DNA from: a virus
Lineage: Duplodnaviria; Heunggongvirae; Uroviricota; Caudoviricetes
DNA: 25,579 nucleotides
Virus record (IMG/VR): IMGVR_UViG_2531839131_000011
Reading direction: 5' to 3' (one strand)
Shown: positions 17 through 25,579 of the stretch, one piece after another
How the letters are laid out: each line of letters starts with the position of its first letter
Numbering within the stretch: the stretch's first letter is position 1
Notes under the pieces: generated by a model
What the model was told of the DNA's origin: nothing
The model's database searches: none
The model's input: only the letters and a program-made list of their open reading frames with translations
Position numbers and translations under genes: made by a program

Positions 17-961
17 ACGGTAAATCAGGCTTCTGGCGCATTACAGAAAAAACAGAACGGCGCAGATATTCCGGGAAAAGATACCTTCACCAAAAATATT
101 GGGGCCTGTCGCGCATATAGCGCATGGCTGAATATTGGTGGCGATAGTCAGGTCTGGACAACTGCGCAATTTATTTCGTGGCTGGAGAGTCAGGGGGCAT
201 TTAACCATCCTTACTGGATGTGCAAAGGCTCATGGGCTTATGCAAATAATAAGGTCATTACAGATACAGGTTGCGGAAATATTTGTCTTGCAGGTGCTGT
301 GGTGGAAGTTATTGGCACCCGCGGCGCAATGACCATACGCGTTACCACGCCGAGCACGTCCAGCGGTGGCGGAATCACTAACGCTCAATTCACTTATATT
401 AATCATGGTGATGCTTACGCTCCTGGCTGGCGACGAGACTACAACACGAAAAACCAGCAGCCTGCATTTGCTTTAGGGCAAACAGGACGCAGGGTCGCAA
501 ATGATAAAGCTGTTGGCTGGAACTGGAATAGCGGCGTTTATGATGCAGATATCAGTGGCGCATCGACATTAATCCTCCACTTTAATATGAATGCGGGGAG
601 TTGCCCTGCTGTACAGTTCCGCGTGAATTACAGAAATGGCGGTATCTTTTATCGTTCAGCGCGTGATGGTTATGGCTTTGAAGCTAACTGGTCAGAGTTT
701 TACACCACAACACGCAAACCCTCTGCGGGAGATGTTGGTGCATATACGCAGGCAGAAGGTAACTCAAGGTTTATTACAGGTATTCGCCTTGGCGGTCTGT
801 CATCTGTTCAGACATGGAATGGTCCTGGCTGGTCTGACAGGTCAGGTTATGTCGTTACTGGTTCAGTTAACGGAAACCGTGATGAATTAATTGATATAAC
901 TCAGGCAAGGCCAATTCAGTATTGCATTAATGGAACGTGGTATAACGCGGGGAGTATTTAA
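2..961 (+). CDS. S': S'v: alternative tail-fibre variable C-terminal domain, promoterless cassette (5' end is the gix crossover, no own start)
   Basis: Frame is open from window position 2. Begins [24 protein letters not shown], homologous to the Sc/Sv junction of the minus-strand S. Ends ...YCINGTWYNAGSI, like the S C-terminus ...[12 protein letters not shown]. The ORF-track start at 218 is internal. Confidence 0.75.
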   Translation, partial: LGLQETVNQASGALQKKQNGADIPGKDTFTKNIGACRAYSAWLNIGGDSQVWTTAQFISWLESQGAFNHPYWMCKGSWAYANNKVITDTGCGNICLAGAVVEVIGTRGAMTIRVTTPSTSSGGGITNAQFTYINHGDAYAPGWRRDYNTKNQQPAFALGQTGRRVANDKAVGWNWNSGVYDADISGASTLILHFNMNAGSCPAVQFRVNYRNGGIFYRSARDGYGFEANWSEFYTTTRKPSAGDVGAYTQAEGNSRFITGIRLGGLSSVQTWNGPGWSDRSGYVVTGSVNGNRDELIDITQARPIQYCINGTWYNAGSI

Positions 962-963
962 TT

Positions 964-1497
964 ATGATGCACTTAAAAAATATTACTGCTGGCAACCCTA
1001 AAACAAAAGAGCAATACCAGCTAACAAAGCAATTTAACATCAAATGGCTTTATTCAGATGATGGAAAAAACTGGTATGAGGAACAAAAGAATTTCCAGCC
1101 AGACACTTTGAAAATGGTCTATGACCATAACGGCGTTATTATTTGTATTGAAAAGGATGTTTCAGCAATTAATCCGGAAGGCGCAAGCGTCGTTGAATTA
1201 CCTGATATTACAGCAAATCGCCGGGCTGATATTTCGGGGAAATGGTTGTTCAAAGATGGCGTAGTGATAAAGCGAACTTATACCGAGGAAGAGCAGAGGC
1301 AACAAGCGGAAAATGAAAAGCAAAGCCTGTTGCAACTTGTCAGGGATAAAACCCAGCTATGGGACTCACAGCTACGGCTGGGCATCATTTCCGACGAGAA
1401 TAAACAAAAATTAACCGAGTGGATGCTCTATGCGCAGAAAGTCGAATCTACAGACCCCTCCAGCCTGCCAGTAACGTTTCCCGAACAACCAGAATGA
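964..1497 (+). CDS. U': U': alternative tail-fibre assembly chaperone (silent orientation)
   Basis: 177 aa, paralogous to the minus-strand U (MMHLKNI.AGN.KT.EQY.LTK... in both). Starts 2 nt after the S'v stop. Confidence 0.8.
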   Translation: MMHLKNITAGNPKTKEQYQLTKQFNIKWLYSDDGKNWYEEQKNFQPDTLKMVYDHNGVIICIEKDVSAINPEGASVVELPDITANRRADISGKWLFKDGVVIKRTYTEEEQRQQAENEKQSLLQLVRDKTQLWDSQLRLGIISDENKQKLTEWMLYAQKVESTDPSSLPVTFPEQPE

Positions 1498-1500
1498 GAG

Positions 1501-1527
1501 AAGGCCCGATATTGGGCCTTAATTTTT
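1501..1527 (+). terminator. Intrinsic terminator between the convergent U' and U genes
   Basis: aaggccc-gatatt-gggcctt hairpin followed by aattttt on the plus strand. On the minus strand the hairpin has no U tract. Confidence 0.5.
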
Positions 1528-2053
1528 ACTCAGGCTTTTGTGGCCATTCGGGATTTGCTGTATCCACACGGCTGACCAGAACGCTGTAGCGTTCCCATGA
1601 CTCCAGTCGTGTGCGTTCCTCATCCGTCGCCATATTCAGCCTGACAGCGCGTTCCAGTGGCTGAATAACGCTTTCAGCTTCAGAAAGCAACGCGCCCTTT
1701 TGTGATTCGGCTTGTTGTTGCTGTTCGTCTGCCGTATAAATCCGTTTAACTACAGCTCCATCCTTAAACATCCACTTTCCTGAATCATCAGCGCGGCGGT
1801 TGGCTGTTATATCGGGAACCTCAACGACGCTAAAACCTTCAGGGTTAAGCGTGGAGGCATCTTTAGTGATGGCGACAATAATATTATTTGCATCGTAAAC
1901 AATCTTTATTGTGTCTGGCTGAAAGTTTTTCACTTCCTCATACCAGTTTTTTTCGTCCTCAGAGTAAAGCCAGATGACTCCGTGCTTCTTTGTTAACTCA
2001 TACTGCTCCAGTGTTTTAGCGTTACCTGCTTTTATGTTCTTTAAGTGCATCAT
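1526..2053 (-). CDS. U: U: tail-fibre assembly chaperone (expressed orientation)
   Basis: 175 aa. ATG at 2053 is 2 nt after the S stop at 2055-2057. Tfa-like sequence. Confidence 0.85.
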
Positions 2054-2054
2054 A

Positions 2055-3647
2055 TTAAACGCTCGCTACATTATACCAAGTGCCATTTATATACTTTTGA
2101 ACTGGTCTGTAATAAACCCCCGCTATATTATCGGCAGAATTGGACCCTGTATCCTGAACATTAATACCAGATAATACATGACCTGACGGGCACTGGAAAT
2201 TCCATGTTTGCCAGTTGTTCACACCATAATATTGCTGTGAGCCAAGCCGAACATCTTTTACATATCGGGAATCTAAATTACTGAAATCAGACGGTAATAT
2301 CCGCCCAGTGATACTTATTTCTTTTTTGCTCTGTAACGTACCGTTCTGAAAGCGGAACACATGCACACCATTAGCATAAGCATCCAGCACCCCATCACCA
2401 TTTTGTTTAAACCCAGTATCGTTATCTCCTAAAACTATTGAATTTCCCCCCAGGGCATTAGCCGTTCCAATCCCCAGATTTCCGCTAAAAATGGCATTAA
2501 TACCGAATATTGAGTGAGAACAATAAAACCCTCGCCCATTGTTAAAATCCAGAATGGCTTGTGCGTTCGTGCTTTCTGTCGCGGGATTAGTTGCTCCCCA
2601 CTTATATGTTGTTTGACCGACGGTATAATCCTGAGTTGGAACAATAACCGTTAGCCCTTCTTCAGCAGAAACCCGCACAGGAAAAGCCCTGCCTTCAACG
2701 TAAAAAACGCTGCATACATCATCTTCTTTAAGGCTTGTTACAATGGAGTGGATTGCGCGCTCATTAGTCTGATACGTCGAAAAATAACCTGCCGCATATG
2801 AACCATGATCAGTCCAGCCACCAGGCATTACCATTCCATTGAATTCGCAGTTATTCATTGCGTAATCACCAGTGGCAGATGTGGTCGTTATAATCACTCT
2901 GGAAGCCAGCTCGCCAGTGCTGCCTGTGGAACGCCGGAAAATAACTGGATACCACTTTCCACCAACTGCATTAGACGGCGCATTAAATGCGTACTGCCGC
3001 ATTCCTTTTTTCTTATCCACCTCGCCTTTGCTGTAAACATTAATGTTACTCAGGAAGCGATCCTTATCAGGAATATCCGCGCCGTTCTGGTTTTTTTGTA
3101 ATGCGCCAGAAGCCAGATTTACCGTTTCCTGCAAACCGAGGTTTTGGATAAACAGCGGCTTATTGGGAATATCTGCTCCGTTCCGGTCTTTTGCCAGACG
3201 GGCATTGGCATTATCCATCGCAATTTTCACCGCTTTTGCGGTGGCTGCCAGCGTTTCACTGGGGCTGTCAGTGGCACTGGTTAGCTGAACGAGGCCTTTT
3301 TTGTTCAGGCTGGCATCCCAGATATCCAGATTTTCACGTGCTGTACGCTGTGCTGATGCCCCGGCAATTTTAATTTCGCTGAGGTTATTTTTTATCAGCA
3401 GCGCGTTATTGCTCATAATGGCTTTAATGGACAGTGCAAGCTGGTTTAATTTTGTTTTATCCGGTTGAATACCGGCTTCTTCCAGCGTGTTTAATAACTC
3501 CGCCTGCACAATATTAAACCAGTCCATACCGGGCCATGTGATAGCATTATTCCCGTCACCTTCTGAAAACCAGCGAACGATAGCACTACGCTGGGCGGAT
3601 ACGGGCGGCATGACGGTTACGCCGCTGTCGTTATCAATATAAAACAT
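2055..3647 (-). CDS. S: S: tail fibre protein (constant N-terminal part 3152-3647 fused across gix to variable part 2055-3125)
   Basis: 530 aa. Coiled-coil-like N-terminal part, C-terminal receptor-binding-like domain. The gix site lies in frame within it. Start overlaps the upstream stop (TAATG). Confidence 0.85.
3126..3151. other. gix-like Gin/Hin-family crossover site inside the S gene
   Basis: ttcctgcaaaccgaggttttggataa: two inverted 12-bp half-sites around a central 2 bp, matching the gix/hix consensus as I recall it. In the S frame it encodes FIQNLGLQE. Confidence 0.7.
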
Positions 3648-11925: not shown

Positions 11926-13425
11926 TTACAGAATGAACTGAACTTGTGCCGCGAAAATGCGGAACTGGTTAATCAGATTCGGGCCGCACAGCACATCAAG
12001 ACGGTCTTTGTCGTCCTTGTTACGTGCCACATACAGCTCCTCTTTGAACGTGTCGAAATCCTCGACCAGTCCGGCGTTTTCCCATTCTTCAAACAGTGCC
12101 AGCAGCTCCGTTTTGATCACGGATGGCGTCACCACGGCCTGACCGGTGGCAAAGCGGGTGCCATCACTTGCCAGCTTGTGGTTCGGGAATTTCTGCGTGA
12201 TGCGGGTTCGCAGCGAATAACGCAGATAACTCAGCGTGGCGATGGTATTCACGTTCAGATAAGACGGATCGCTGTCACCATACTTGTTCGTGCGGTACAT
12301 CGTGATCATGCGTTCAATCTGCATTTCACCACCATCATTCACGTTAAACGTGGAGATGCCGTCAAACAGCAGCGCATTACGTTCTGACCAGGTGAAACGA
12401 TCCCCCACCGCAGGCGGCATTCTTCCGGGCAACGTCAGCGTCTGGAGTGGACGCGCCGGGTCGATGGAAAGCGCCTGGCTGGCAACGGCACACAGGGTGG
12501 CGGCGTACAGATATGACGGTTCCGGTGCATCGGCAATCCCCATACAGGAAATCAGATGGTCATTACGTCTGACACCAAACGTGGAAATATCCCCATACGT
12601 GCCGGACAGCACTGTCACGGCAAAGCCATCAGCCTGACTGACCGGTCCCCAGCGTTCCTGCAATTCAGTGCGTAACAGATTCAGGTTCGGTTCATCGGTA
12701 TAGGGCATCACAATATATTTGTATTGCAGATCGCCCATTCCCGCGATACTTGCGCTGATATCCGGGTTGATGTATTTCCGGGATTCGGCTTTGAATGCCG
12801 TGATAATCCCGTAAGGGGTGGTTTCACCCGCGTAATAGTTCCAGCGCACATCCACGGCAGATAATGCACCCGTAAATTTTGCAGTCAGAACTATATCTGT
12901 AGCGCCGGCATCATCCGGCGTGGTTGAGAGCAATACTGCCTTCACCGGCAAATCAGGATGACCGTTGATTCGGTCAGTCAGCAGGCCAGCCAGCTTCGAT
13001 CCCTTGGTACCTGCTGCGACGGATACCGCCAGTCGCTGACCGGCAATGTAAGTCACAAGCGAGCCGTTTTCGGTTGCCGTTCCTGACAGTGTGATCATAC
13101 CGACAGTAGTTTTAGAGATAGTATTACCGGGGTTTTTCGCCTGCGGAATACACCACAGCTCCGCCACGCGGTTAGCTTTCAGGAATGCATCTGCCATCAG
13201 TGCCAGCATGGAACCCTGACCAAACGCCGCACTGGCCTGTGAGCCGGAACGGATACGGACAGGCACGTCTGGTGCCGCACTGGCCCCCTTATTGCTTTGC
13301 CCGAACATCAGCACGCGCTGACGGGGGGCCGGTGTTCCGCTGACGGCATTACTGTTATCAAATTCGATATACGCCAGAGGAACGCGAACATCTGGCGGGA
13401 TCGCGTTAAATGAAATATCGCTCAT
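11926..13425 (-). CDS. L: Contractile tail sheath protein
   Basis: 499 aa. N-terminus [25 protein letters not shown] is typical of Mu-type sheath proteins. GGAG Shine-Dalgarno. Confidence 0.85.
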
Positions 13426-13431
13426 TTCGAT

Positions 13432-13662
13432 TTACTCCGTTTTTTTCAGCGCAGCGTCGGTATCATCCGCCGTGTTTTCGGTGCTCCCGACTTCAACCAC
13501 ATCAGTGTTTTCGGTGCTCCCGACTTCAACCACATCACCGGCTACAAGGCGACGTATCCAGAAACTGTTACGGGGCTTTTCTTCTCCCTCAGGCGCCAGT
13601 AATTCCATCGTGAGCGGGTCACGGATGGTTTTTCCCTCTGCGGGTTTAATTTTCAGCATCAT
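13432..13662 (-). CDS. Small neck-region protein (Mu gp38-like) carrying an 11-aa tandem duplication
   Basis: 76 aa. Contains DVVEVGSTENT twice, encoded by a perfect 33-bp duplication at 13472-13537. Confidence 0.5.
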   Translation of the reverse strand: MMLKIKPAEGKTIRDPLTMELLAPEGEEKPRNSFWIRRLVAGDVVEVGSTENTDVVEVGSTENTADDTDAALKKTE

Positions 13663-23134: not shown

Positions 23135-23424
23135 GAATTACTCCGGTTTACTGCGTTTTCAAGCAGCAGCTCCAGTTGATGGGAAAATGACTGCACCCGC
23201 TGGGACAGCACCCGGATATCACCGGACAGCTCTGCAATTCGCAGGCGCATTTCGTGTACATCTTCTGTGCCGGGGATGCTGGCGTAGCGGGTTTCCATTT
23301 CGGTCATCCGGTTTTCAAGACGCTCCACACGCTCGGTGCTGGCAAAACTACGACGCATCGCCCAGACGGCCCCACCGGCCACAACAGGCAACAGGTAAGG
23401 CCATAACGCTAAAACTGAATCCAT
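23131..23424 (-). CDS. Membrane-anchored coiled-coil protein (Mu gp25-like, candidate releasin for the SAR lysozyme)
   Basis: About 97 aa from ATG 23424 (GGAG Shine-Dalgarno; the ORF-track start is a GTG 18 nt upstream). N-terminal hydrophobic segment LALWPYLLPVVAGGAVWAM, then heptad-like region. Confidence 0.45.
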   Translation of the reverse strand: MDSVLALWPYLLPVVAGGAVWAMRRSFASTERVERLENRMTEMETRYASIPGTEDVHEMRLRIAELSGDIRVLSQRVQSFSHQLELLLENAVNRSNS

Positions 23425-24735: not shown

Positions 24736-24762
24736 AAATAACCGGCAGGATGCCGGTTATTT
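24736..24762 (-). terminator. Intrinsic terminator of the middle (C) transcript
   Basis: Perfect stem aaataaccggca / tgccggttattt with 3-nt loop. The C stop codon lies inside it. Followed on the minus strand by a short U-rich run. Confidence 0.6.
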
Positions 24763-25179
24763 TGGGCTTTCAGGTGAGAACAGATCAGGCTGATGACGTC
24801 GTGTATGCAGCTTTCTCTGGCGGGCAATAATCTGGTAGATCTGCGGCTGGGACAGGCGATACTGGCGACGCAGTTCTTCCATGTTACGACCATTGAACTG
24901 GCAGTAAAGCAAATCGTCGCGTAACGCGGTCAGGATCGTATCGCCGCAGGGGATGTAAAACTGCCGCCCGCCCAGAAAACAGGACAGGGCAACGGCCTGT
25001 TTACGGGCAAGCTCACGGGGATTGCTGACGTTCTGGCGTTTCAGTTCGTTTTCCAGAATATCAATCAGATCAACCACTGAACGGGGCCAGCGTGATTCCA
25101 GTTCCGGGGCCGGGATGTTATCAATATGCCCGATTAACTGGCGAATTGCCGGATCGTGTTCAAATAAATCATGCTGCAT
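24757..25179 (-). CDS. C: Late-gene transcriptional activator C (Mor/C family)
   Basis: 140 aa. Sits directly upstream of the lysis genes, separated by terminator and promoter. Confidence 0.8.
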   Translation of the reverse strand: MQHDLFEHDPAIRQLIGHIDNIPAPELESRWPRSVVDLIDILENELKRQNVSNPRELARKQAVALSCFLGGRQFYIPCGDTILTALRDDLLYCQFNGRNMEELRRQYRLSQPQIYQIIARQRKLHTRRHQPDLFSPESPK

Positions 25180-25191
25180 ATTTTCCCCCGG

Positions 25192-25311
25192 TTAACAGAC
25201 AAAAAGATACACCACGGCACTGATGGTTATCAGAACCACAAGGGCAATCACTTTTATCGCATTAATCAGCGTGGACGGCCCGAAACATTCATCACTGAAT
25301 TTTCTGTACAT
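25192..25311 (-). CDS. Small single-pass membrane peptide (39 aa), middle operon
   Basis: MYRKFSDECFGPSTLINAIKVIALVVLITISAVVYLFVC. AAAGGGG Shine-Dalgarno. Stop is 12 nt before the C start. Too short for the ORF track. Confidence 0.4.
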   Translation of the reverse strand: MYRKFSDECFGPSTLINAIKVIALVVLITISAVVYLFVC

Positions 25312-25320
25312 GGTGCCCCT

Positions 25321-25428
25321 TTACCCGAACAGACGAGCGCGAAAACGAAAGGAGAGCCAGAACGTCAGCAATCCGGCCAGCGCCCAGATGACATACTCAG
25401 GACCCGTTTTCAGTTGAGACGTTGCCAT
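25321..25428 (-). CDS. Small membrane peptide (35 aa), middle operon
   Basis: MATSQLKTGPEYVIWALAGLLTFWLSFRFRARLFG. No clear Shine-Dalgarno. Overlaps a partial ORF in another frame. Confidence 0.25.
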   Translation of the reverse strand: MATSQLKTGPEYVIWALAGLLTFWLSFRFRARLFG

Positions 25429-25579
25429 CACGGCTAATCCCAGCCCGGACAGCCCCCCCCAGCCAGGTCAGAGGCCAGACGAACCGGGCAAAATGTTCAG
25501 GCACCCGGCAGCTCATTATCAGCGCATCCAGACAATCAGCGGCAACACTTAAAGCAACACTGAAAACCGAGGCACAGCA

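What the first reader, a model, noticed from the sequence alone, without database searches (positions are those of the whole stretch)
25192..25579. Unannotated small membrane-peptide ORFs upstream of C
Below the 60-aa track cutoff there is a 39-aa single-pass membrane peptide (25311-25192) with a good Shine-Dalgarno, and a 35-aa hydrophobic ORF (25428-25321). A partial ORF in a third frame (25579-25398) overlaps the latter. Small membrane peptides in the middle operon could be lysis timing factors, toxins or membrane modulators. Which overlapping frame is real cannot be decided from sequence alone.
Basis: seen in the sequence. Interest (0 to 1): 0.45.

Follow-up and report, generated by a model that had tools for sequence, protein, structure and literature searches.

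The report
Mu genes 19 (frameshifted) and 20
These are not new peptides: the 39-aa ORF is phage Mu's already-annotated gene 20, and the two "overlapping" ORFs are the two halves of Mu gene 19, broken here by one extra G in an eight-G run; published experiments report both genes to be dispensable and non-toxic.

Summary
The window is a Mu/D108-type (pro)phage, about 98% identical to Mu, with genes on the minus strand. The 39-aa ORF (25311-25192) is Mu gene 20, a single-pass membrane protein annotated in Mu, D108 and SfMu. The 35-aa ORF (25428-25321) and the partial ORF (25579 to the stop at 25399-25397) are not rival genes. They are the two halves of Mu gene 19 (E19; 120 aa, 4 TM), split by a +1 frameshift in a G8 run (25460-25453) where the nearest relatives have G7 in frame and Mu has GGGGAGT. 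Gene 19 evolves under purifying selection in one continuous frame (pN/pS 0.33, P=8e-4). It is also naturally optional: SfMu-type and Yersinia Mu-like phages lack it. All other Mu genes in the window are intact. The +1 tract is a recurrent minority state on two haplotypes (4 vs 29 and 5 vs 79 contigs), so it is either a slippage hotspot or a homopolymer miscall. One modest new lead is that the end of gene 20 is predicted to pair with C's ribosome-binding site, suggesting translational coupling. Overall: ordinary and already known.

The parts
25321..25579 (-). 3' two-thirds of Mu gene 19 (E19) homologue, frameshifted. The first 35 codons lie beyond the window edge.
   Evidence: 98% nt identity to Mu/D108 gene 19 with one extra base. 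tblastn gives two collinear HSPs in two frames. Matches phrog_4975.
25453..25460 (-). G8 homopolymer (C8 on the + strand), the site of the +1 frameshift.
   Evidence: Mu has GGGGAGT. The nearest relatives L011 and L018 have G7 in frame; the window has G8. It is the only G:C run of 7 or more in the 25.6-kb window.
25397..25399 (-). Premature TGA stop reached in the shifted frame. The predicted product is 95 aa (TM1, TM2, half of TM3, then 18 out-of-frame residues).
   Evidence: Translation. The exact 95-aa product P0007 is on record from four sequencing runs.
25321..25431 (-). C-terminal remnant of gene 19 in the ancestral frame (TM4). There is no convincing SD upstream.
   Evidence: 97% identical to Mu gp19 residues 84-120. 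Upstream sequence GGGATTAGCCGTG|ATG.
25316..25320 (-). Shine-Dalgarno AGGGG of gene 20, immediately after the native gene 19 stop TAA (25323-25321).
   Evidence: Sequence. Annotated as an RBS in AF083977.
25192..25311 (-). Gene 20: 39-aa single-pass inner-membrane protein (13 polar N-terminal residues, then a TM segment running to the C-terminus). Intact.
   Evidence: 97% identical to Mu gp20, identical to SfMu_20. phrog_19823 E=2.6e-30. ORF intact in all 40 loci. Hydropathy.
25171..25215 (-). Predicted RNA hairpin (-14.2 kcal/mol). The last 7 codons of gene 20 pair with the SD (GGGGGA, 25189-25184) and AUG (25179-25177) of C, with the gene 20 stop UAA in the loop.
   Evidence: z=-2.65 for the 81-nt context. 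Predicted in 5 of 6 natural haplotypes. Not exceptional among RBSs (rank 5 of 30). No covariation data.
24757..25179 (-). Gene C (late transcription activator, Mor/C family), the essential gene of the middle operon downstream of 19 and 20.
   Evidence: Pfam PF08765 E=2.4e-33. 98.6% identical to Mu C.

Best explanation
The stretch is the distal part of the phage Mu middle operon (Pm - 18 - 19 - 20 - C).

The 39-aa ORF is gene 20, a lineage-restricted single-pass inner-membrane protein that is always kept directly upstream of C.

The two 'overlapping' ORFs are gene 19, a 120-aa four-TM inner-membrane protein. Here it is inactivated by a one-G expansion (G7 to G8) of a homopolymer that arose in this sub-lineage. 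Translation shifts frame in TM3 and stops 25 codons before the native stop, giving a 95-aa product that lacks TM4.

Gene 19 is an optional accessory cassette, so the lesion is tolerated and the rest of the prophage is intact.

Shown here: identity, the frameshift, selection in a single frame, the optional status of gene 19, and the constant presence of gene 20.

From the literature: both genes are middle genes, dispensable for lysis, and neither toxic nor holin-like.

Inferred only: the membrane proteins modulate the host envelope during lytic growth in some non-essential, condition-specific way. Also inferred: translation of gene 20 through its last codons helps open the C ribosome-binding site.
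For: Identity:
- 98% nt identity to Mu and D108 across the stretch.
- Mu_19/Mu_20 and D108 19/20 annotations match base for base.
- PHROG hits phrog_4975 and phrog_19823.

Frameshift:
- One extra base in the G run.
- Two-frame tblastn hit.

One ancestral frame:
- Mu vs the divergent L040 allele gives 41 differences. pN/pS is 0.33 in the gene 19 frame (binomial P=8e-4) against 1.3-1.4 in the other sense frames.

Gene 19 is optional:
- It is cleanly absent from SfMu, the Yersinia vB_YpM phages and 21 of 41 matching E. coli genomes. There, an 18-like gene (93% identical) abuts a GTG-started gene 20.
- Other truncated alleles exist, such as W74-stop and other indels.

Gene 20 is real and constant:
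- It is intact in 40 of 40 loci and 9 haplotypes.
- The mosaic junction lies at its start codon, and each of the two upstream contexts supplies its own SD.
- pN/pS is 0.27 against the most divergent allele (P=0.03 and 0.013).
- The synonymous changes that do not accompany a replacement in the same codon all lie in the TM core.

Isolated lesion:
- All other Mu genes from C to U are full length.

Function, from the literature:
- PMC9239132.

Coupling lead:
-.
- MuC overproduction is lethal (PMC12867686).
Against: Whether the extra G is biological or a homopolymer miscall cannot be settled without reads.

No direct evidence here, or in the papers found, shows that gp20 or gp19 protein accumulates in infected cells.

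The selection signal for gene 20 rests on only 11-15 substitutions.

The whole 20-C-lys block is at least 98% conserved, so nucleotide conservation alone does not prove that gene 20 is coding.

The coupling hairpin is not exceptional: C ranks 5th most occluded of 30 RBSs. It has no covariation support. Gene 20 was reported to be inactivatable without a lysis defect, which argues against strong dependence of C on it.

The positive biological role of both proteins remains unknown.
Confidence: 0.88

Rival explanations
1. The extra G is a sequencing or assembly error at a G7 homopolymer. The source phage has an intact gene 19 and there is no pseudogene.
For: The change is a single-base length difference in the only long G:C homopolymer of the window. 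The +1 state is a small minority of contigs on each haplotype (4 vs 29; 5 vs 79). The two +1 forms, G8C and G7TC, have the same length and differ only at the base after the run, as a post-homopolymer miscall would. One carrier, L019, has another 2-nt indel that truncates gp25. None of the 20 complete E. coli genomes with gene 19 has the extra base.
Against: The exact G8 allele was assembled independently from four runs (SRR446932, SRR446936, SRR446942, SRR446949), and those contigs differ from one another elsewhere. The same shifted product is also present in NCBI assemblies on other backgrounds (P0008, P0009). The window has no other frameshift in about 30 genes.
Confidence: 0.3
2. The G tract is a genuine phase-variable (contingency-type) switch that turns the gene 19 membrane protein on and off within populations of this prophage lineage.
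For: It is a homopolymer inside a coding region. G7 (on) and 9-nt (off) states are both present on two haplotypes and on a third protein background. Isolates named E. coli P0299917.4 and .6 carry +1 forms. An in-frame G7 assembly (L018) has a neighbouring accession, which suggests a sibling isolate. That link is inferred from accession order and is not verified.
Against: Most gene 19 alleles, including Mu, D108 and all 17 Mu-type loci, have an interrupted tract (GGGGAGT) and cannot switch, so switching is not a conserved feature of the gene. G7-8 runs in mismatch-repair-proficient E. coli mutate slowly compared with classic contingency loci (general knowledge). The gene is only transcribed in the lytic middle phase, so an on/off state would rarely be exposed to selection in lysogens. 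No within-sample heterogeneity data are available.
Confidence: 0.08
3. One reading: the 39-aa and 35-aa ORFs are separate small membrane peptides acting as lysis-timing factors, toxins or membrane depolarisers. This includes the published holin/antiholin proposal for gp19 and gp20.
For: Both are hydrophobic. Both lie near the lysis cassette. Samanta et al. 2021 proposed gp19/gp20 as a holin-antiholin pair on topology grounds (cited in PMC9239132).
Against: The 35-aa ORF is the tail of gene 19, not a gene. Induced gp19, gp20 and 19+20 were not lethal even after DNP, whereas lambda S105 and phage 21 S68 were. They are middle genes, not late genes. They can be inactivated without a significant lysis defect. 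No PADLOC, Pfam or NCBIfam match to any toxin or holin family.
Confidence: 0.05
4. Gene 20 matters mainly as a coupling (leader-like) ORF. Ribosomes finishing gene 20 melt a hairpin that hides the SD and AUG of C, so that dosage of the toxic activator C is tied to upstream translation. The peptide itself would be secondary. This is not exclusive with the main explanation.
For: The gene 20 stop lies 12 nt before the C AUG and sits in the loop of a predicted -14.2 kcal/mol hairpin whose 3' arm is C's SD and AUG. For the 81-nt context z=-2.65, with 1 of 200 shuffles as stable. The hairpin is predicted in 5 of 6 natural haplotypes. In the 2-nt-deletion allele, gene 20 instead overlaps the C start. 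Gene 20 is retained next to C in every relative, whether or not gene 19 is present. MuC overproduction is lethal.
Against: C's RBS occlusion is only 5th of 30 in the window. There is no covariation. One haplotype (L038) folds differently. Reported inactivation of gene 20 caused no lysis defect. The TM core shows synonymous-only or conservative change, which argues that the peptide itself is under selection. No literature on C translational coupling was found.
Confidence: 0.3
5. The G8 run is a programmed recoding site (ribosomal +1 slippage or transcriptional slippage) that yields both a 95-aa and a full-length product.
For: Homopolymer runs allow tRNA re-pairing and low-level slippage (general knowledge; reviewed in PMC5009743, listed).
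Against: The in-frame G7 and interrupted-tract alleles are the great majority and need no recoding. There is no conserved stimulatory element. The shifted-frame tail is not conserved as a coding frame (pN/pS above 1).
Confidence: 0.03

Closest known systems
Phage Mu gene 20 product (Mup20 / Mu_20, AAF01097; D108 gene 20; SfMu_20; phrog_19823)
   Same: 39 aa, 97% identical to Mu and identical to SfMu_20. Same position between gene 19 (or 18) and C. Same SD-spacer-ATG arrangement. One TM segment, N-in/C-out per the Mu annotation.
   Different: A single S37F replacement relative to Mu. This F allele is itself common, being found on 226 contigs.
Phage Mu gene 19 product (E19 / GP19_BPMU, AAF01096; phrog_4975)
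   Same: Same gene, same position and about 98% nt identity. The ancestral frame is under purifying selection.
   Different: A +1 frameshift in a G8 run truncates it to a predicted 95 aa lacking half of TM3 and all of TM4. The tract itself (G7/G8) is a sub-lineage feature absent from Mu and D108.
Holin/antiholin pairs of tailed phages (e.g. lambda S105/S107, phage 21 S68/S71)
   Same: Small membrane proteins encoded near an endolysin. A 4-TM plus 1-TM pair was proposed as holin/antiholin on topology grounds (Samanta 2021).
   Different: Middle rather than late expression. Not lethal on depolarisation. Dispensable for lysis. Mu uses a SAR endolysin plus the releasin gp25 instead of a holin. No sequence match to any holin family.
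Homopolymer slip-strand frameshifts / contingency loci
   Same: A coding-region G tract with length polymorphism among very close relatives that switches the reading frame.
   Different: The tract is short (7-8). It is present only in a sub-lineage. The gene is a dispensable lytic-phase gene. No evidence of high-rate switching.
Translationally coupled gene pairs with an RBS-occluding hairpin (classical operon and RNA-phage examples; general knowledge)
   Same: The upstream ORF stops 12 nt before the downstream AUG. Its last codons are predicted to pair with the downstream SD and AUG.
   Different: Only predicted. Stability and occlusion are unexceptional. No genetic evidence.

Membership tests
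Mu gp20 family (phrog_19823) | Full-length sequence match to the 39-aa family profile | tested here: met
   E=2.6e-30 over positions 1-39 of 39. 97% identical to Mu by tblastn. Exact sequence equals SfMu_20 AIY32319.
Mu gp20 family (phrog_19823) | Position immediately upstream of C in the Pm-driven middle operon | tested here: met
   Stop at 25192, C ATG at 25179. Same layout in all 40 loci.
Mu gp20 family (phrog_19823) | Single transmembrane segment | tested here: met
   Kyte-Doolittle 17-residue windows of 1.6 or more span residues 9-39. Mu annotation: 1 TMD by Phobius/TMHMM.
Mu gp19/E19 family (phrog_4975) | Sequence match to the family | tested here: met
   Mu gp19 hits the window at residues 36-94 and 84-120. 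98% nt identity.
Mu gp19/E19 family (phrog_4975) | Continuous 120-codon reading frame giving a 4-TM protein | tested here: not met
   +1 frameshift at G8 (25460-25453) and premature stop at 25399-25397. The product loses TM4 and half of TM3. So this is a disrupted allele (pseudogene or miscall) of the family.
Holins | Lethal triggering on membrane depolarisation when expressed alone | not testable with these tools
   The literature on the Mu alleles shows 19, 20 and 19+20 constructs with unimpaired viability after DNP, unlike S105 and S68 (PMC9239132).
Holins | Required for, or timing, host lysis; late-gene expression | not testable with these tools
   [quoted passage not shown] The gp22-gp25 cassette lacking genes 18-21 was used as a functional lysis cassette.
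Small membrane toxins (type I TA-like) | Toxicity on overexpression; an antisense RNA partner | tested here: not met
   Tested here: no Rfam match on either strand, no promoter-like site and no PADLOC hit. Not tested here, from the literature only: no toxicity on induction.
Phase-variable contingency locus | Homopolymer or repeat tract within the coding region | tested here: met
   G8 at 25460-25453.
Phase-variable contingency locus | Tract-length polymorphism among otherwise near-identical relatives | tested here: met
   G7 vs 9-nt alleles on two haplotypes: P0031 (29 contigs) vs P0007 (4 contigs), and P0030 (79 contigs) vs P0008 plus P0003 (5 contigs).
Phase-variable contingency locus | High-frequency reversible switching within a clonal population, with a selectable phenotype | not testable with these tools
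   Needs read-level or colony-level data. Sequencing error is an equally good explanation of the polymorphism.
Translational coupling via RBS-occluding hairpin | Upstream stop within a few nt of the downstream start | tested here: met
   12 nt between the gene 20 stop and the C AUG. They overlap in the L008-type allele.
Translational coupling via RBS-occluding hairpin | Downstream SD and AUG sequestered by pairing with the end of the upstream ORF, conserved and unusually stable | tested here: inconclusive
   Hairpin of -14.2 kcal/mol, z=-2.65, predicted in 5 of 6 haplotypes. But only rank 5 of 30 for occlusion, with no covariation.
Translational coupling via RBS-occluding hairpin | Downstream translation depends on upstream translation | not testable with these tools
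   Requires reporter fusions.

The most novel reading that the evidence does not exclude
In one sub-lineage of E. coli Mu-like prophages, an A-to-G and T-to-G change created a G7 tract inside gene 19 that now toggles between G7 and G8. This would be a real slip-strand on/off switch for a lytic-phase membrane protein. Alternatively or in addition, gene 20 persists in every Muvirus because its translation gates the ribosome-binding site of the dosage-toxic activator C.
Probability: 0.12. Interest if true: 0.4.

Novelty: already known. Interest (0 to 1): 0.12.

Why it matters
It matters little for discovery. Genes 19 and 20 of Mu have been in the sequence record since the early 1990s (M64097) and were examined experimentally in 1993 and 2022.

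The practical value is in annotation.
(i) Automated pipelines (PGAP) routinely miss the 39-aa gene 20 in E. coli prophages.
(ii) A naive ORF scan of a frameshifted gene produces two spurious "overlapping small ORFs".
(iii) Comparative data show that gene 19 is an optional cassette while gene 20 is constant. This narrows where a function should be sought.

If the coupling hairpin were confirmed, it would add a translational layer to the Mor-to-C-to-late-genes cascade, relevant to the recently reported toxicity of excess MuC.

Tried and rejected
I used tblastn against phages, the exhaustive HMMER scan and a degenerate DNA pattern in IMG/VR instead. All found only close Muvirus relatives.
- Pfam, NCBIfam and PADLOC gave no significant family for either protein. 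The best hits were DUF4190 at E=0.51 and 2TM_IV at E=0.067.
- PDB sequence search found nothing.
- Rfam found nothing and the promoter scan found no sites. Two terminator-like hits lie inside C and lys and are at chance level.
- The AlphaFold2 model of intact gp19 from a 3-sequence alignment was poor (pLDDT 62.6, pTM 0.35), so I did not run a fold search on it.
- The exact G8 35-mer is absent from the one-genome-per-species collection.
- Literature: a 2025 Tn-seq preprint that matched the search terms is not about Mu genes 19/20. A 'Mup19/Mup20' search returned mouse urinary proteins. PMC210775 (Mathee & Howe 1990) is not held. Mathee & Howe 1993 and Samanta 2021 could only be cited second-hand through PMC9239132.
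- Self-correction: I first took L036 to be the window's haplotype with G7, but L036 does not cover the haplotype-defining sites. I replaced that claim with exact-sequence look-ups of the in-frame products.
- Programmed frameshifting was considered and rejected, because in-frame alleles dominate and the shifted frame shows no coding constraint.

Full report
**What the window is**

The 880 bases at the right-hand end of the window match phage Mu and D108 over their full length at 97.6-98.1% identity. They match SfMu and the Yersinia Mu-like phages from query position 266-270 onward.

Genes lie on the minus strand. The 140-aa ORF at 25179-24757 is C, the late-gene activator (Pfam Mor family, E=2.4e-33). 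It is followed by the SAR endolysin gene.

Every Mu gene from C to U is present, collinear and full length in the window.

**Checking the observation**

- a 39-aa ORF at 25311-25192, with AGGGG four bases upstream of the ATG;
- a 35-aa ORF at 25428-25321 (36 aa from GTG 25431);
- a frame open from the window edge to TGA at 25399-25397.

The 39-aa product has 13 polar residues followed by one strongly hydrophobic segment that runs to the C-terminus. The 35-aa product has one weak hydrophobic segment.

**What they are**

In the curated Mu record AF083977, the stretch corresponding to 25311-25192 is Mu_20. It is described as a "transmembrane domain-containing protein, N-in C-out, 1 TMD".

The whole stretch from beyond the window edge to 25321 is a single gene, Mu_19 (E19). 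It encodes 120 aa and is described as "N-in C-in, 4 transmembrane domains". D108 annotates the same two genes, and the 1991 left-end record M64097 already lists E19.

Mu and D108 read CTG GGG AGT CTG (L-G-S-L), whereas the window reads CTGGGGGGGGCTG, which is one base longer. The run is G8 at 25460-25453.

Upstream of the run, the window is in the gene 19 frame. The shifted frame runs into TGA at 25399-25397.

tblastn with Mu gp19 accordingly gives two collinear hits in two frames. The gene's first 35 codons lie beyond the window edge.

**Which frame is real**

I compared Mu with the most divergent gene 19 allele found (L040; 84% aa identity, 41 nucleotide differences).
- In the annotated single frame there are 20.5 synonymous and 20.5 non-synonymous changes. 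This gives pN/pS 0.33 and binomial P=8e-4.
- In the other two sense frames pN/pS is 1.3-1.4, and those frames hold 5-10 stops.
In that zone there are 3 synonymous and 3 non-synonymous changes in the gene 19 frame, against 0 and 4 in the alternatives.

So sequence comparison does decide the question: there is one gene, broken.

**The frameshift**

Among 29 loci that cover the tract:

| Tract allele | Frame | Loci |
|---|---|---|
| Interrupted Mu-type GGGGAGTC | in frame | 17 |
| G7C | in frame | 5 |
| G7TC | +1 | 2 |
| G8C | +1 | 5 (the window plus four contigs) |

The window's nearest relatives with an intact gene 19 (L011, L018; 99.5% identical) are G7.

The predicted 95-aa product of the window allele uses 35 N-terminal residues borrowed from relatives. 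It is an exact match to a protein on record from four separately assembled sequencing runs. Those four contigs differ from each other and from the window at other sites.

Contig counts by haplotype:
- Window haplotype: in frame on 29 contigs (P0031), frameshifted on 4 (P0007).
- Sister haplotype: in frame on 79 contigs (P0030), frameshifted on 5 (P0008, P0003).
- A third background also carries the shift (P0009).

The +1 state is therefore a recurrent minority. That pattern fits either a slippage hotspot in a dispensable gene or repeated homopolymer miscalls. I cannot separate these without reads. I put about 0.3 on artefact and most of the remainder on a real, tolerated mutation.

None of the 20 complete E. 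coli genomes that carry gene 19 has the extra base. The run is the only G:C homopolymer of 7 or more in the window.

**Gene 19 is optional, gene 20 is constant**

SfMu, five Yersinia Mu-like phages, PhiR68_1 and 21 of the 41 matching complete E. coli genomes lack gene 19 entirely. In these, an 18-like gene (93% identical to Mu gp18) runs directly into a GTG-initiated gene 20, at the position where gene 19's ATG sits in Mu.

Other disrupted gene 19 alleles exist, including W74-stop in E. coli and Salmonella and other indels.

By contrast, gene 20 is intact in all 40 loci examined, across 9 DNA haplotypes. The break between the two alternative upstream modules falls at its start codon, and each upstream context supplies its own SD-like motif.

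Against the most divergent allele (the L008 type, found in six E. coli genomes), codons 2-34 show 6 synonymous and 5 non-synonymous changes. This gives pN/pS 0.27 and P=0.03. For L008 vs L040, P=0.013.

The synonymous changes that stand alone in their codon lie in the TM core, and the replacements cluster in residues 13-17. That allele also has a 2-nt deletion that re-tails the protein to 45 aa, overlapping the C start.

The evidence for selection on the peptide is real but thin.

**How far the families reach**

Gene 19 has six related clusters in 5.8 billion proteins, all close relatives.

Gene 20 has three clusters among 1.84 billion representatives, again all close. In phage records it occurs only in Muvirus.

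There is no significant Pfam, NCBIfam, PADLOC or PDB relative. Both genes belong to PHROGs of unknown function. An AlphaFold2 model of gp19 was too poor to search with.

**Function: what is already known**

Chamblee et al. 2022 (PMC9239132) list 19, 20, 23 and 25 as the only Mu genes that encode TMD proteins. They note a published proposal (Samanta et al. 2021) that gp19 and gp20 form a holin/antiholin pair. They give three points against it:
[quoted passage not shown] - Their own experiments showed that arabinose-induced gp19, gp20 and 19+20 left viability unimpaired after DNP depolarisation. The lambda S105 and phage 21 S68 holins were lethal under the same treatment.

A gp22-gp25 cassette with genes 18-21 deleted served as their working lysis cassette.

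**A modest new lead**

The last seven codons of gene 20 are predicted to pair with the SD (GGGGGA) and AUG of C, with gene 20's UAA in the loop.
- The isolated hairpin is -14.2 kcal/mol. The 81-nt context folds at -24.0 kcal/mol, z=-2.65, and 1 of 200 shuffles is as stable.
- The hairpin is predicted in 5 of 6 natural haplotypes.

This is the geometry of translational coupling. It would explain why gene 20 is always kept beside C. It also fits the finding that MuC overproduction is lethal (PMC12867686).

Points against:
- C's RBS is only the 5th most occluded of 30 in the window.
- There is no covariation.
- The reported lack of a lysis phenotype on inactivating gene 20 argues against strong dependence.
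- I found no paper on this question.

I give it about 0.3, and it is not exclusive with a role for the peptide.

**Verdict**

The finding is Mu genes 19 and 20, already annotated and already tested for the proposed functions. Gene 19 carries a +1 homopolymer frameshift in this copy, which created the illusion of overlapping small ORFs.

Novelty: already known. Interest: low.

Noticed in passing
window 23418-23423 (start of gp25/releasin, minus strand; ORF 23442-23131): The window lacks six bases (TTGATT) present in Mu and in all the close relatives I compared, apart from L021 and L019, which carry other indels nearby. The releasin gp25 therefore starts MDSVLALW instead of MDLISVLALW, an in-frame loss of two residues at the periplasmic end of its TMD. 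L020, which shares the G8 allele, does not have this deletion.
   Followed up: partly
L004 1-392 (NZ_CP083503) and L037 440-1000 (NZ_CP035836): Some E. coli Mu-like prophages carry a glycoside hydrolase family 108 (muramidase-type) gene inside the middle operon, between mor and the gene 18 homologue. The Pm-to-C interval therefore behaves as a cargo slot: GH108 optional, gene 19 optional, genes 18 and 20 constant.
   Followed up: no
L040 2501-2863 (Logan ERR6565040): Gene 19 in this contig is a divergence island. Its pS is 0.23, against 0.01-0.07 for the flanking genes mor, 18, 20 and C. This suggests recombinational replacement of just this cassette, or locally relaxed or diversifying evolution.
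   Followed up: partly
L008 1200-1340 (NZ_CP098214) and five other E. coli genomes (H51-H56): This is a divergent gene 20 allele (89% nt). A 2-nt deletion at codon 35 gives a 45-aa product with a new tail (…SFCLLTGGKYAA), and its stop overlaps codons 3-4 of C.
   Followed up: partly
RefSeq E. coli prophages: L004, L005, L008, L037, L038, L039: PGAP annotation leaves the 39-aa gene 20 uncalled in every RefSeq E. coli prophage inspected, although the curated phage records annotate it. This looks like a systematic small-ORF omission.
   Followed up: yes
window 218-3647 (S, U, and the inverted S'/U' region): Mu tail-fibre S matches only over residues 1-186 (96%), and its C-terminal part matches at 48%. 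U matches at 91% on one strand and 56% on the other. This is a G-segment-like invertible host-range region with variable parts different from Mu's.
   Followed up: no
window 11929-13659 (gp38 and L/tail sheath): gp38 (77% identical with 11 gaps) and the tail sheath (90%) are markedly more divergent from Mu than their neighbours (96-100%). This is a local mosaic patch in the tail module.
   Followed up: no
L019 4797-4798 (GCA_000357345.2) and L021 (Logan SRR446949), both near window 23380-23389: These draft contigs carry small indels in gp25 that truncate it or change its length. The indels may be assembly noise, which bears on how far the tract alleles from the same project can be trusted.
   Followed up: no
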